Of a DNA stretch of 64,000 nt, positions 55,681 through 62,375 are shown one piece after another; position 1 is the stretch's first letter; each line of letters begins with the position of its first letter. Both the position numbers and the translations under genes were made by a program. Origin of the DNA: the human T2T-CHM13v2.0 reference genome, Homo sapiens; the NCBI RefSeq assembly GCF_009914755.1, contig NC_060926.1, one strand, 5' to 3'. The notes under the pieces were generated by a model that worked only from the letters and a program-made list of their open reading frames with translations, was not told where the DNA came from and made no database searches.

Positions 55681-56805
55681 ATTAACAGATAAATTATAAG
55701 TCACAAAGAATCTCTAAGCAAACATACCTAAGAGAAAAATCAGAATAAGCCAGACAGGGAAGACTAGAATAAATAATCCTTCAATGTAACTCATTATTTC
55801 CAAGACAACACAGAAAGGCAATTTGGAAATTTATTAGAGAAATTTAACAAGGAGAATAAAGTACTTAAAAAATCAAATAGAACCCTTGGAACTGATAAAG
55901 ACTTTTGCTAAACTGAAAAATTCATTAGAGACTCTCAATAGTGGAATAGGTAAAATAGAGGAAATAACCAGTGAACTCAAAGATAGGCTATTTGAAAATA
56001 CAGTTGGAGTAGAAAAAAGAAAAAAAAGAATAAAAAAATGAAGGTCACCTACAAGATACAGAAAATTACCTCAAAAGAACAAATTTAAGAATTACTGTTG
56101 TTCAAGATGGAGTATAGCAAGAGCAAGGGGAAGAAAGCTTATTTAAACCAAAACAGAAACAAAAAAAAAAACCAGAAAACTTCAAAACTTGAGAAAGGGA
56201 GAAATATCCAGCTATATGAAAGTCAGAGAAAACCAAACAGATTCAAACCAAATAATACACAAGTCACATAATAATCAAACTCTCAAAGGTCAAGGATGAA
56301 GAGAAGATCTTAAAAGTACAAAGAGAAAATAAGTCAATAACGTATGAAGGATCTCCAATTCATTTGGCAACAGATTTCTCAATGGAAATCATACAGGGCA
56401 GGAATGGGATGACATTTTCAAAGTGCGAAACTAAAAAACAAAACAATGAAAAACTGCCATCCAAGAATACTGTGTCCAGCAAAGCTATCCTTCAAATATG
56501 AAGGAGAGATAAAGCTTTTCCAGATGAAAAGCTGAGAAAATTCACCACCACCAGACCTGTATTAAAAGAATTGCAAAAGGAAGTCTACAATCTGAAAGAA
56601 AATCTTGTCAGACACCAGACGTGTCTTACAAGGATTGCAAAAGGAAGTCTAAAATCTGAAGAAAAAAAAAAAAACACTAACATACAAAAATAAAACATGT
56701 AAAAGTATAAAACTCACTGGTAAAATTAAGTACACAGACAAACCTAGAATACTCTAATACTGCAATCGTGGTGTGCAATTCACTCACAATTCTACTATGA
56801 AGATT

Positions 56806-56881
56806 TTTTTTAAGTGAAAGCCAGTTTATCAAGAAAGTAAAGGAATGAAAAGGTGTTATCTACTCCACAGGCAGAGCAGCC
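56806..56881 (-). mobile_element. Short polyadenylated retrocopy of a MER41-type LTR R region
   Basis: exact 14-bp TSD ctactatgaagatt (56792-56805, 56882-56895); polyT; body GGCTGCTCTGCCTGTGGAGTAG...TTCCTTTACTTTCTTGATAAACTGGCTTTCACTT. Confidence 0.8.
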
Positions 56882-58483
56882 CTACTATGAAGATTAAAAG
56901 ACAAAGCTGTCAAAAATAATAATAGATATAGCAACCTGTTAAGAGACAACACAAAGTCAAAATGTAGGCAGGGGTGGAATTAAAGTGTCAAGTTTTAAAA
57001 TTGTTTCTTTGTTTCTATTCTTTTAATTGTCATCTAAAATAAGTTGTCATCACTTTAAAATAACTTGTTATATCTATAAGATGTGTTGTGTAAGCCTCAT
57101 GGTAACAATGATGCAAAAACCAATAAGAGATTCACTAGAAACAAAAGCAATGAATTAAAACATCCTACCAGAGAAAATCACTTAATCACAAAAAAAGACA
57201 GTAAGAAAGGAAAAAGGAAGAGAGGACTTACAAAACAACCAGAAAGCAAGCAACAACATTAGCGTAGTAAATCCTTACTCATTAAAAAAAAGAATCAATG
57301 AAAATTGACACAATTTTTCAATTAAAAGGCATAGAGTGGCTGAGTGGGTAAGGAAACAAGAACCAACTCTGTGCTGCCTACAAGAAACCTACTTCACCTA
57401 TAAAGACATATATAGGCTGAAGGTGAAGGGGTGAAATAAGATATTCCAGGCAGTTGAAAACCAGAAAAAGAGCAGGAATACCTATGCTTTTTAGATAAAA
57501 TGGACTACAAATGGGATTACATCAAGTTAAAAACTTCTGCATAGCAAAGGAAGCAATCATCGTAATGAAGACACAACCCACAGAAATAAGAGTAAATATT
57601 TGCAAACTAGCTGTGTGACAAGAGATTTTTTTCTCTCCTCCCGTGACAGATTATGACAAGAGGTTAATAACCAGAATACATAAGGAGCTCAAACAACTCA
57701 ACAGCAAAAATAAGCAAATAATTTGATTTAAAAACAGACAAAAAGATCTGAATAGATATTTACCAAAAAAAGCATACAAATAATAGGTATATGGAAAAAA
57801 TGTTCAACATTTTTCAACATTATAAGATAAATGTAAATCAAAATCACAATGAAATATCATCTCACCCCAACTTAAATGGCTTTTATCCAAAAGAAAGGGA
57901 ATAACAGATGTAGGTGCGGATGTGGAAAAAGAACACTTATATATTGTTGATGGGAATATAAATTAGTACAGCAACCATAGAAAACTATTTGGATGTTCCT
58001 CAAAAACCTAAAAACGGAACTACCATATGATCTAGAAATTCCACTGCGGGTATATATCCAAAAGAAATGAAATAAATATATCAAAGAGGTATCTACACTC
58101 CCATGTTAACTGCAGTACTAGTCACAATAGCCAAAATATGGCATCAACCTAAGTGCCCATCAAGGGATGAATTGATAAAGAAAATGTGGCGTACATGCAC
58201 AATGGAATATTATTCAGCTGTAAAAAGAATAAATCTTGCCTTTTGCAGCAACGTGGATGGAGCTGTAGTTCACTATGTTAAGTGAAATAAGCACAGAAAG
58301 ACAAATATCACATGTTCTCACTCATTTATGGAAGCTAAAAATGCATGTCTCATGAAGATAGAGTGTAGATTGGTGGTTACCAGAGGCAGCAAGGGTAGGA
58401 GAGAAGGGGAGGGTGAAGAGAGATTGATTAATTGATGCAAACATATAGTTTTATGGAAATTTGATAGAAGCAATAAAACCTGG

Positions 58484-61993: not shown

Positions 61994-62375
61994 GGCCAGG
62001 CATGGTGGCACATGCCTATAATACCAACACTTTTTGAGGCTGAGAAGGAGGGATCACTTGAGGCCAGGAGTTCAAGAGCAGCCTGGGTAACACAGCAAGA
62101 CCCTTACTCTACAAAGAATGTTTTTTGTTTGTTAGTTAGTTCGTTCGTTCTTTCGTTCGTTCGTTCGTTCTTTCGTTTGTTCGTTCGTTCGTTCGTTTTA
62201 ATTAGCTGGGTGTGGTGGCTTGTGCAAGTAATCCTAGGGATTCAGGAAGCTTAGGCAGGACATCCCTTGAGCCCAGGAGTTTGAGGTTCTGGTGAGCTAG
62301 GATCACACTGCTGCACTTGAGCCTGTGCAACAGAGCAAGATCTTGTCTCTAAAAACAATAATAATAATAATAATT
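61994..62375 (+). mobile_element. AluJ with its central linker replaced by (TTCG)n
   Basis: both arms; (TAA)n tail; linker 62119-62198. Confidence 0.88.

What the first reader, a model, noticed from the sequence alone, without database searches (positions are those of the whole stretch)
56792..56895. SINE-like retrocopy made only of an LTR R region
Seen: a 70-nt body plus short polyA between perfect 14-bp TSDs, which indicates L1-type target-primed insertion rather than integrase (4-6 bp TSD, TG...CA ends). The nick context is imperfect (GATT/AA). The body ends about 13 nt after a decayed polyA signal (GATAAA) and starts with a hairpin-like GGCTGCTC...GAGTAG. From recall it matches the MER41 LTR stretch from roughly the TSS (about 25 nt after the TATA-like box) to the polyA site. 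Inference: solo LTRs made tiny start-to-polyA R-only RNAs that L1 mobilised, possibly an under-recognised family of mini-retroposons hidden in annotations as MER41 fragments.
Basis: partly seen in the sequence, partly recalled or inferred. Interest (0 to 1): 0.72.

Follow-up and report, generated by a model that had tools for sequence, protein, structure and literature searches.

The report
L1-copied mini-RNA from LTR R region
This 70-base insert is a LINE-1-made DNA copy of a tiny RNA that ran only from the start site to the poly(A) site of an ancient retroviral LTR, and it is one of roughly 170 such copies in the human genome, a class that appears not to have been described.

Summary
On the minus strand, a 70-nt body plus A6 lies between perfect 14-bp direct repeats. 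The window holds 4 such repeats; shuffles give 0.06.

The body is the R region of a MER41-like ERV1 LTR. In full LTR copies a TATA-like box lies 28 nt before its first base, and U5 follows its last base.

It is not a one-off. The R 3' end followed by A5 occurs 289 times in the genome (reversed control 1), against 1750 R-U5 junctions. I examined 92 poly(A)-ended sites. Of these, 54 start at R nt 1 (+-3) with no U3, and 29 extend into U3 or the interior with scattered 5' ends.

Of 52 R-only copies tested, 30 have TSDs above the control 95th percentile, with a TT/AAAA-like target.

Best reading: promoter-proximal polyadenylation made capped R-only RNAs of about 67 nt, which L1 retrocopied (confidence about 0.8). 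The main rival is R-R recombination of full-length processed pseudogenes (about 0.1).

Seven topical literature searches and one sequence-string search found no prior description. The MER41 name rests on indirect evidence; no Dfam comparison was possible.

The parts
56882..56895 (-). 5' copy of the target-site duplication, in the orientation of the element (AATCTTCATAGTAG on the minus strand)
   Evidence: Perfect 14-nt direct repeat, family D2. It abuts the first G of the body with offset 0.
56812..56881 (-). 70-nt body: a complete R region (transcription start to poly(A) cleavage site) of a MER41-like ERV1 LTR
   Evidence: 83-89% identical to 39 other genomic matches. It aligns to R nt 1-67 of full LTRs L006-L008 at 87%, with neither U3 nor U5.
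56858..56881 (-). Decayed remnant of the family's 5' R hairpin (R nt 1-24)
   Evidence: Family copies fold as a 7-9-bp stem (L007 -15.5 kcal/mol, z -3.97; L017 -11.7, z -1.44). The window copy has lost the closing pairs (z 0.49).
56825..56830 (-). Poly(A) signal hexamer, here GATAAA (AATAAA in most relatives), ending 13 nt before the tail
   Evidence: Position read from the sequence. Relatives carry AATAAA at this place.
56806..56811 (-). Poly(A) tail remnant (A6, continuous with the AA that opens the 3' TSD copy)
   Evidence: The family's tails have a median of 10 nt and range from 4 to 30.
56792..56805 (-). 3' copy of the target-site duplication
56892..56899 (+). First-strand nick site of the target, 5'-GATT/AAAA-3' on the plus strand (nick between 56895 and 56896)
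   Evidence: Read. The plus-strand ...GATT is continuous with the T6 and the antisense body at the other TSD copy, as target-primed reverse transcription predicts.
56256..57434 (+). Host sequence: a decayed L1 on the plus strand. The insert lies in its inter-ORF spacer, in antisense orientation.
   Evidence: ORF1 RBD (PF02994) 25.3 bits at 56256-56501. End of the ORF1 dsRBD (19.1 bits, below cut-off) at 56502-56693. Start of the ORF2 endonuclease (16.1 bits, below cut-off) at 57309-57434.

Best explanation
The element is a dead-on-arrival retrocopy of a very short RNA polymerase II transcript.

Proposed sequence of events: a MER41-like gammaretrovirus-type LTR fired from its own TATA-driven start site. 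The transcript was cleaved and polyadenylated at the LTR's own poly(A) site only about 67-70 nt downstream, giving an RNA that consists of the R region alone. The LINE-1 ORF2 protein then nicked the target at GATT/AAAA, primed on the poly(A) tail, copied the RNA to its capped 5' end and left a 14-bp target-site duplication.

The same event happened again and again: roughly 170 fixed R-only copies, from several LTR subfamilies, at about the time the LTR family itself was spreading (roughly 40 Myr ago by divergence).

Shown here: the anatomy, the identity with R, the shared 5' end, the TSDs and target motif, the family size, and the multiple sources.

Inferred, not shown: the existence and capping of the R-only RNA, the use of the promoter-proximal poly(A) site, L1 as the enzyme, and the kind of source LTR (solo or proviral).
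For: 1. Anatomy of the window copy: body, A6 and a perfect 14-bp TSD. Four such repeats in the window against 0.06 in shuffles.

2. The body equals R. In 3 full LTRs (L006-L008) and in most of 40 sampled R-U5 sites, U3 with a TATA-like ATAAAAA starting 28 nt upstream directly precedes GGCTGCTC, and U5 directly follows CACTT.

3. Abundance. The R 3' end plus A5 matches 289 times at up to 2 mismatches (148+141; reversed-pattern control 0+1), 64 of them exactly. The R-U5 junction matches 1750 times (control 0).

4. 5' ends. I examined all 64 exact sites and 28 of the 36 listed one-mismatch sites.
- 54 of 92 begin at R nt 1 +-3 with unrelated sequence upstream. Four of these are split by a later antisense Alu.
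- 29 of 92 continue into U3 or the ERV interior.
- 2 start about 15-16 nt upstream of R.
- 6 are truncated inside R.
- 1 is undetermined.

The 29 longer copies end at scattered distances of 130-1238 nt from the R end, or run beyond the fetched flank (12 copies). That is about 0.03 ends per nt across U3, against about 8 per nt at R nt 1 +-3.

5. L1 hallmarks in the family.
- 30 of 52 R-only copies have a TSD score above the 95th percentile of 260 mismatched-flank controls; TSD lengths are 8-20 nt.
- TSDs start with A at +1 in 25/30, +2 in 29/30, +3 in 24/30 and +4 in 19/30. They are preceded by T at -1 in 18/30 and -2 in 17/30.
- Tails have a median of 10 nt.

6. Many sources rather than one master. 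Mean pairwise identity over R nt 1-47 is 0.829 among R-only copies, 0.831 among LTRs and 0.828 between the two classes. R-sequence variants occur in similar proportions: R-only 38/7/1/6 and LTR 21/6/1/3.

7. Reverse-transcriptase stalling at the 5' hairpin (nt 1-24) would give ends near nt 25, not nt 1.
Against: - No RNA evidence (CAGE, 3'-end or small-RNA data) was available, so the R-only transcript itself is inferred.
- As I recall from the HIV literature (not read here), retroviral poly(A) sites this close to the cap are generally considered inefficient. The proposed RNA is therefore unusual.
- Full-length processed pseudogenes of the same family probably exist. Two of 40 R-U5 junctions (L102, L126) lack U3, start at R nt 1 and run past the LTR end into a shared sequence. 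R-R recombination therefore has a substrate and cannot be excluded on structure alone.
- 22 of 52 R-only copies have no TSD above the control threshold.
- Nearest neighbours are of the same class slightly more often than chance (0.603 against 0.496; 3 of 500 permutations reach it). Some sources were therefore more productive than others.
- Only 92 of the 289 sites were inspected. Apart from the window copy and L002, which came from another search, none was from the two-mismatch class.
- The window copy's nick site has only two T's before the nick.
Confidence: 0.8

Rival explanations
1. Solo-R by recombination. L1 first made full-length processed pseudogenes (R-U5-interior-U3-R-A(n)). Later homologous recombination between the two 67-nt R copies, or a template jump from the 3' R to the 5' R during reverse transcription, removed everything between them. 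The product is R-A(n) between the original TSDs.
For: The product would be structurally identical to what is seen. A substrate probably exists: 2 of 40 R-U5 junctions (L102, L126) lack U3, start at R nt 1 and continue beyond the LTR end. In addition, 12 of 29 U3-bearing poly(A) copies extend beyond the fetched 0.8-1.5 kb. From general knowledge, solo-LTR formation by the same kind of recombination is very common.
Against: - Numbers. R-only copies (54 of 92) outnumber all U3-bearing poly(A) copies (29 of 92). At least 17 of those 29 are 5'-truncated within 1.24 kb and could never recombine.
- The rival therefore needs roughly 70% or more of all retrocopies of a multi-kb RNA to have been full length, and about 80% of those to have recombined across a repeat of only 67 nt. 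As I recall, that is below the length at which mammalian homologous recombination is efficient.
- The '..TTTTGTTTC..' R variant is found in 7 of 52 R-only copies but in 0 of 26 U3-bearing poly(A) copies (one-sided hypergeometric p about 0.05 by my hand calculation). This hints that the two classes draw on different RNA pools. It is a weak point, because L102 is of this variant.
Confidence: 0.1
2. Ordinary 5' truncation. The window element is a randomly 5'-truncated L1 retrocopy of a long LTR-terminated transcript (proviral RNA, or a host gene using the LTR poly(A) site) that happened to stop near the U3/R boundary.
For: Such truncated copies exist in the same family, with ends at many positions in U3, the interior and R (L047 at about nt 33, L060 at about nt 46, L055 at -62 with a 14-nt TSD). 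Short 5'-truncated mRNA pseudogenes are known: 654 of 300 bp or less (abstract of PMC2831318).
Against: The window copy starts exactly at R nt 1 (offset 0), where 54 of 92 family members also start. The density of ends there is about 300-fold above that in the adjacent U3.
Confidence: 0.03
3. Self-propagating SINE. A master R-only copy that landed near a promoter founded its own amplifying lineage.
For: A small excess of same-class nearest neighbours (0.603 against 0.496; 3 of 500 permutations).
Against: - The copies carry no promoter. The TATA box lies in U3, which they lack.
- No Rfam family and no small-RNA head was found.
- R-only copies are as diverse as the LTRs and as close to LTRs as to each other (0.829, 0.831, 0.828). 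They also show the LTR subfamily variants in similar proportions.
Confidence: 0.03

Closest known systems
HERV-W (LTR17/HERV17) processed pseudogenes made by L1
   Same: Both are L1-mediated copies of an ERV1 (HERVW9 supergroup) RNA that starts at R and ends at R plus poly(A). Both show a TT/AAAA target motif and TSDs of 5-15 bp. The HERV-W R is also about 71 nt (LTR17 nt 256-326) (PMC5016936 and PMC5537654, passages read). MER41 is placed in the same supergroup (PMC4724089).
   Different: HERV-W pseudogenes carry R-U5-gag-pol-env-U3-R. Here the two R's coincide and nothing lies between them, so the template was (or became) R alone. [quoted passage not shown] The MER41-like copies found here, both R-only and U3-R-A(n), are a second group.
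Short processed pseudogenes of mRNAs (Terai et al. 2010, PMC2831318)
   Same: Both are very short (300 bp or less) poly(A)- and TSD-flanked L1 retrocopies (abstract read).
   Different: Those are 5'-truncated 3' ends of long mRNAs with variable 5' ends. According to the section headings, repeats were deleted from the genome before that search, so LTR-derived copies would have been missed. Here the 5' end is fixed at the transcription start.
Retro-DNAs (L1-retrocopied transcripts of DNA transposons; PMC11195612)
   Same: In both cases a repeat of another class is copied by L1, has a poly(A) signal, a tail and long TSDs, and is hidden in annotation as a fragment of its parent family (passages read).
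   Different: The source is an LTR with its own promoter and poly(A) site, which gives a defined RNA unit rather than arbitrary fragments.
SINEs and small-RNA retropseudogenes (Alu, U6, Y RNA; comparison recalled, not tested)
   Same: Small size, L1 dependence, A-rich tail and TSDs.
   Different: There is no internal Pol III promoter and no tRNA, 7SL or 5S head (no Rfam match). The transcript is Pol II-type with AATAAA-directed polyadenylation. The copies cannot be transcribed from their own sequence.
Solo LTR
   Same: It derives from the same LTR family, and RepeatMasker would probably label it as a fragment of that LTR (not checked).
   Different: A solo LTR is U3-R-U5 (about 535 nt here) ending ...ggtaaca, inserted by integrase. 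This element has R only, a poly(A) tail and a 14-bp TSD.

Membership tests
L1-mediated (target-primed) retrocopy | 3' poly(A) tail directly after the RNA's cleavage site | tested here: met
   A6 (+AA) follows ...CACTT, 13 nt after the hexamer. Family tails have a median of 10 nt.
L1-mediated (target-primed) retrocopy | Target-site duplication of roughly 7-20 bp | tested here: met
   14/14 nt, against 0.06 expected per window. In the family, 30 of 52 copies score above the control 95th percentile.
L1-mediated (target-primed) retrocopy | Nick site resembling 5'-TTTT/AA-3' | tested here: inconclusive
   The window site is GATT/AAAA, with only 2 of 4 T's. The family as a whole shows the motif: A at TSD +1 to +4 in 25, 29, 24 and 19 of 30 copies, and T at -1 and -2 in 18 and 17 of 30.
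L1-mediated (target-primed) retrocopy | Colinear with a processed RNA, without flanking promoter or downstream sequence | tested here: met
   The body spans exactly from the U3/R boundary to the R/U5 boundary of full LTRs.
MER41 LTR (Repbase/Dfam) | Significant match to a Dfam/Repbase MER41 model | not testable with these tools
   No Dfam or RepeatMasker library is on hand. A literature search for a 17-mer of R found 0 papers.
MER41 LTR (Repbase/Dfam) | Two GAS (STAT1) motifs in tandem, 21 bp centre to centre, in the LTR (reported for the MER41B consensus; PMC2897888) | tested here: met
   11 of 29 U3-bearing relatives have two TTCNNNGAA motifs exactly 21 nt apart, at about -105 and -84 from R nt 1. 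19 of 29 have at least one. L006-L008 have one each, at -84 to -88. This was tested on relatives, because the window copy has no U3.
MER41 LTR (Repbase/Dfam) | Simian-age gammaretrovirus-type LTR (PMC11905727) | tested here: inconclusive
   Mean pairwise identity of 0.83 in R fits roughly 40 Myr by my inference. The organisation is U3 about 380 nt, R about 67 nt with AATAAA inside R, and U5 about 87 nt. No other primate genome was available.
SINE | Internal promoter or small-RNA-derived head, and a self-propagating lineage | tested here: not met
   No Rfam match at E of 1 or less. The promoter (TATA) lies in U3, outside the copy. The copies do not form a distinct lineage.
HERV-W-type processed pseudogene | R-U5 at the 5' end and U3-R-A(n) at the 3' end, with ERV interior between them | tested here: not met
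   The window copy has no U5, interior or U3. Related U3-R-A(n) copies (29 of 92) and R-U5 starts (2 of 40) do exist elsewhere.
Solo LTR (integrase insertion) | Complete U3-R-U5 with LTR termini and a 4-6-bp TSD | tested here: not met
   Only the 70 nt of R are present, with a 14-bp TSD.

The most novel reading that the evidence does not exclude
MER41-type LTRs, and perhaps other gammaretrovirus-like LTRs whose poly(A) signal lies inside a roughly 70-nt R, act as complete miniature transcription units. They emit capped, polyadenylated 'R RNAs' of about 67 nt. In the simian germ line these were a more frequent L1 template than the family's own long RNA, and they produced the shortest poly(A) retroposon family in the human genome (about 170 or more fixed copies). 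The copies are nucleotide-resolution fossils of an ancient transcription start and cleavage site. Interferon-responsive MER41 LTRs may still make such RNAs today.
Probability: 0.45. Interest if true: 0.7.

Novelty: new variant of a known kind. Interest (0 to 1): 0.6.

Why it matters
1. It would add a second ERV group, and a new minimal form, to the list of L1 trans-templates. A 2017 review abstract calls HERV-W the sole HERV group mobilised by L1.

2. About 170 independent copies record to the nucleotide where an LTR that is roughly 40 Myr old started and ended transcription. They show that its promoter-proximal poly(A) site, only about 67 nt from the cap, was used in the germ line. This bears on the old question of how retroviruses keep the 5' LTR poly(A) site silent, and on what solo LTRs do when no downstream splice donor is present.

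3. These copies are probably annotated as MER41 fragments. Analyses of MER41 as an interferon-responsive enhancer family would then count promoterless 70-nt relics as LTR copies.

4. It predicts a class of tiny LTR-derived poly(A)+ RNAs that can be looked for directly.

The window copy itself is intergenic, decayed and very probably without function.

Tried and rejected
- Source LTR or second copy in the window: none found.
- Known RNA family at the site: none. Rfam gave 0 matches at E of 1 or less.
- Dfam naming: not possible with these tools.
- Planned landmark test for the name, using the 'MER41' enhancer of AIM2: dropped, because PMC11905727 reclassifies that LTR as ERV-Saru.
- Literature search for a 17-mer of R: 0 papers.
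- Pavlicek et al. 2002, the original HERV-W pseudogene paper: not held under the DOI or under a recalled PMC id. Costas 2002 was not attempted. Either could contain remarks on R-only copies that I could not see. No supplementary files were consulted.
- Three-mismatch pattern count: 543 matches with control 9. Not used as a family size, because LTR R-U5 junctions carrying one A substitution would enter at that threshold.
- Reverse-transcriptase stalling at the R hairpin: rejected, because the hairpin occupies nt 1-24 and stalling would place ends near nt 25.
- First TSD finders: they over-called A-rich matches or missed decayed TSDs. They were replaced by a scored search with mismatched-flank controls.
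Forty short stretches were fetched instead.
Full report
**1. The observation**

The plus strand of the window reads CTACTATGAAGATT (56792-56805), then T6, then 70 nt, then CTACTATGAAGATT again (56882-56895). On the minus strand this is a 14-bp repeat, a 70-nt body GGCTGCTC...GATAAACTGGCTTTCACTT, A6, and the repeat again. The GATAAA hexamer ends 13 nt before the tail.

On the plus strand the left repeat copy (...GATT) runs straight into T6 and the antisense body. In the uninterrupted target, ...GATT was followed by AAAAGAC. This is what target-primed reverse transcription from a nick at 5'-GATT/AAAA-3' leaves behind.

Perfect direct repeats of 14 nt or more, spaced 30-150 nt, occur 4 times in the window. 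The other three are Alu-internal, a tandem duplication in the host L1, and a microsatellite. Fifty block-shuffles gave a mean of 0.06.

The host is a decayed plus-strand L1, and the insert sits between the ORF1 and ORF2 remnants. No Rfam family matches the site. There is no related sequence elsewhere in the window.

**2. What the body is**

The window's own genome could be searched. The 76-mer gave 508 candidates. Forty were scored, and all matched at 83-100% identity.

In three of the eight loci returned (L006-L008) the 67-70-nt match is embedded in an LTR of about 535 nt. Directly upstream lies '...caagaaataaccataaaaatagccaaccagcagccctcag', and directly downstream 'tactct...'.

I then sampled 40 sites that match the R-U5 junction pattern. 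Most showed the same arrangement, and 31 of the 40 yielded an R anchor:
- a TATA-like ATAAAAA starting 28 nt before GGCTGCTC;
- AATAAA at R nt 48-53;
- cleavage after CACTT;
- a U5 of about 87 nt ending ...ggtaaca.

The body is therefore exactly R, from the transcription start to the poly(A) site. This layout, with the signal inside a short R, is the one I recall for gammaretroviruses.

R nt 1-24 form a hairpin in well-preserved copies (L007 -15.5 kcal/mol, z -3.97). In the window copy the hairpin has decayed (z 0.49).

**3. The family name**

Dfam was not available, so I tested a published property instead. Schmid and Bucher state that the MER41B consensus has two GAS motifs in tandem, 21 bp centre to centre (PMC2897888, passage read). 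Among 29 relatives that retain U3:
- 19 have at least one TTCNNNGAA;
- 11 have two, in every case exactly 21 nt apart, at about -105 and -84 from R nt 1.

MER41 subtypes are simian-specific gammaretrovirus-type LTRs (PMC11905727) and belong to the HERVW9 supergroup (PMC4724089). I therefore call the source 'MER41-like'. The subtype is open. The window copy belongs to a rarer R variant, shared with L006-L008 and L003.

**4. It is a family**

The last 19 nt of R followed by A5 match 289 places at up to 2 mismatches (148+141; reversed-pattern control 0+1). Sixty-four of these are exact. The same 19 nt followed by the start of U5 match 1750 places (control 0). About one R end in seven is therefore followed by a poly(A) tail instead of U5.

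I fetched all 64 exact sites and 26 of the 36 listed one-mismatch sites, and added L004 and L005, which are on that list. The 8 sites not fetched are 5 segmental-duplication copies of one insertion and 3 sites on C5.

| Class | Exact sites (64) | One-mismatch sites (28) |
|---|---|---|
| Start at R nt 1 +-3, unrelated sequence upstream | 38 | 16 |
| Continue into U3 or beyond | 20 | 9 |
| Start 15-16 nt upstream of R | 1 | 1 |
| 5'-truncated inside R | 4 | 2 |
| Undetermined | 1 | 0 |

Four of the R-only copies are split by a later antisense Alu, with the missing 5' part and no U3 lying 372-379 nt upstream. In total, 54 of 92 copies are R-only.

Scaled to 289 sites, this gives about 170 copies, including a few segmental duplicates. 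It is a lower bound, because the pattern demands a well-preserved 3' end and tail.

**5. The 5' ends are not scattered**

The 29 longer copies end 130, 152, 227, 283, 334, 382, 384, 423, 459, 472, 666, 682, 708, 717, 735, 742 and 1238 nt from the R end. The other 12 run beyond the 0.8 or 1.5 kb that I held. That is roughly 0.03 ends per nt across U3, compared with about 8 per nt at R nt 1 +-3.

The pattern used for sampling lies at the 3' end, so it does not bias the 5' end.

**6. L1 hallmarks across the family**

For 52 R-only copies I scored the best ungapped match between the 5' flank and the 3' flank. The 5' match was required to end within -4 to +3 of the first G. As a control I paired each 5' flank with the 3' flanks of other loci (260 pairs).
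- 30 of 52 real pairs exceed the control 95th percentile; TSD lengths are 8-20 nt.
- In these 30, the TSD abuts the first G (offset 0) in 17 and overlaps it by one G in 7. One to three extra bases intervene in 6. In three of the six (L005, L021, L037) these look like the last bases of U3, which suggests slightly dispersed initiation.
- TSDs begin with A at positions +1 to +4 in 25, 29, 24 and 19 of 30. T precedes them at -1 and -2 in 18 and 17 of 30.
- A-rich tails have a median of 10 nt (4-30). Bodies have a median of 67 nt.

**7. Sources**

Over R nt 1-47, the part not fixed by the search pattern, mean pairwise identity is:
- 0.829 among R-only copies;
- 0.831 among R's of 31 LTRs;
- 0.828 between the two classes.

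The main R variants occur in similar proportions in both classes (R-only 38/7/1/6, LTR 21/6/1/3). Nearest neighbours are of the same class slightly more often than chance (0.603 against 0.496 +- 0.043; 3 of 500 permutations).

The copies therefore come from many LTRs of several subfamilies, at about the age of the LTRs themselves, with some sources more productive than others. They are not a separate self-propagating lineage, and they carry no promoter. By my inference from the usual neutral rate, an identity of 0.83 corresponds to roughly 40 Myr. This fits the simian age given for MER41.

**8. Mechanism and rivals**

The simplest account has three steps:
- An LTR initiates at its own start site.
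- The nascent RNA is cleaved and polyadenylated at the LTR's own site about 67 nt downstream.
- L1 copies this R-only poly(A) RNA in trans.

The RNA itself is inferred; I had no expression data.

The serious rival is that full-length processed pseudogenes (R-U5-...-U3-R-A(n)) were made first and later lost everything between their two R's by recombination. Such pseudogenes probably exist. Two of 40 R-U5 junctions (L102, L126) lack U3, start at R nt 1 and continue past ...ggtaaca into a similar sequence.

The numbers argue against this rival. R-only copies outnumber all U3-bearing poly(A) copies by 54 to 29, and at least 17 of the 29 are too truncated ever to recombine. Most retrocopies of a multi-kb RNA would have to have been full length, and most of those would have to have recombined across only 67 nt. 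I give this rival about 0.1.

I give the remaining rivals a few per cent each:
- Random 5' truncation is contradicted by the peak of ends at R nt 1.
- Stalling at the hairpin would place ends near nt 25, not nt 1.
- A master-gene SINE is contradicted by the source analysis in section 7.

**9. Comparison with what is known**

HERV-W processed pseudogenes are the closest known thing. They have the same supergroup, the same L1 signature and an R of about 71 nt, but they carry the whole viral RNA. A review abstract calls HERV-W the sole HERV group mobilised by L1. The MER41-like U3-R-A(n) copies with TSDs seen here (for example L055, with a 14-nt TSD) and the R-only class both go beyond that statement.

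Short mRNA pseudogenes (PMC2831318) are 5'-truncated, and that search removed repeats first. Retro-DNAs (PMC11195612) are the analogous case for DNA transposons.

Seven topical full-text searches and one sequence-term search found no description of R-only LTR retrocopies. The library holds open-access papers only. Pavlicek 2002 and Costas 2002 could not be read, and no supplements were consulted.

**10. Verdict**

This is one member of a family of about 170 L1-made copies of an LTR's R-only transcript.

The mechanism of insertion is ordinary. The template, its size and its abundance relative to the family's long RNA appear to be new. I rate it a new variant of a known kind, with interest 0.6.

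The window copy itself is an old, intergenic, decayed relic with no sign of function.

Noticed in passing
L020, L023, L053, L074, L083 (poly(A) copies) and L115, L122, L127 (LTRs): 8 of 132 sampled R regions carry an antisense Alu inserted within the same stretch of roughly 30 nt (about R nt 16-47). R contains a near-consensus L1 endonuclease site that overlaps its poly(A) signal (...ACTTTCTT/AATAAA), which makes it an insertion hot spot.
   Followed up: partly
L015 and L065: Two R-only copies are inserted into the antisense strand of another R, at nearly the same place (TSDs AAAGTAAAGG and AAG(A/C)AAGTAAAGGAATA). This is the same hot spot seen from the other strand.
   Followed up: no
L055, L086, L069, L027, L090, L058 and others (29 of the 92 poly(A)-terminated sites): U3-R-A(n) and interior-U3-R-A(n) copies of the same LTR family, with scattered 5' ends. 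In L055 there is a 14-nt TSD (GGATTGGGGATTTC). These are L1-made processed pseudogenes of a non-W HERV group, which is at odds with a review's statement that HERV-W is the sole such group.
   Followed up: partly
L102 (G000 C1:47272154-47272434) and L126 (C1:234807021-234807301): R-U5 without U3. Both start at R nt 1 and continue past the LTR end into a similar sequence. They are probably the 5' ends of full-length processed pseudogenes of this family.
   Followed up: partly
L003/L032 (C5:51498231-51498297) and six sites on C1 between 120.3 and 148.7 Mb, one of them fetched as L077: One R-only insertion, 5'-truncated at about nt 5-7. Identical flanks were confirmed at C5 and at one C1 site (L077). 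Five more C1 sites share its 24-mer and are taken to be copies. The insertion was carried along by segmental duplications into the chromosome 1 pericentromeric/1q21 region.
   Followed up: no
window 56556-56660: Tandem duplication of about 64 nt in the 3' end of the host L1's ORF1 (ATTGCAAAAGGAAG at 56570 and 56634), followed by an A-run.
   Followed up: no
window 62152-62197: TTCG-type microsatellite (a perfect repeat of 14 nt or more at 32-nt spacing).
   Followed up: no
L018 (C2:161659043-161659114 region) and L075: Two poly(A) copies start 15-20 nt upstream of R nt 1, inside the end of U3. L018 has a perfect 15-nt TSD. Either an alternative upstream start site was used or these are truncated longer RNAs.
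   Followed up: no
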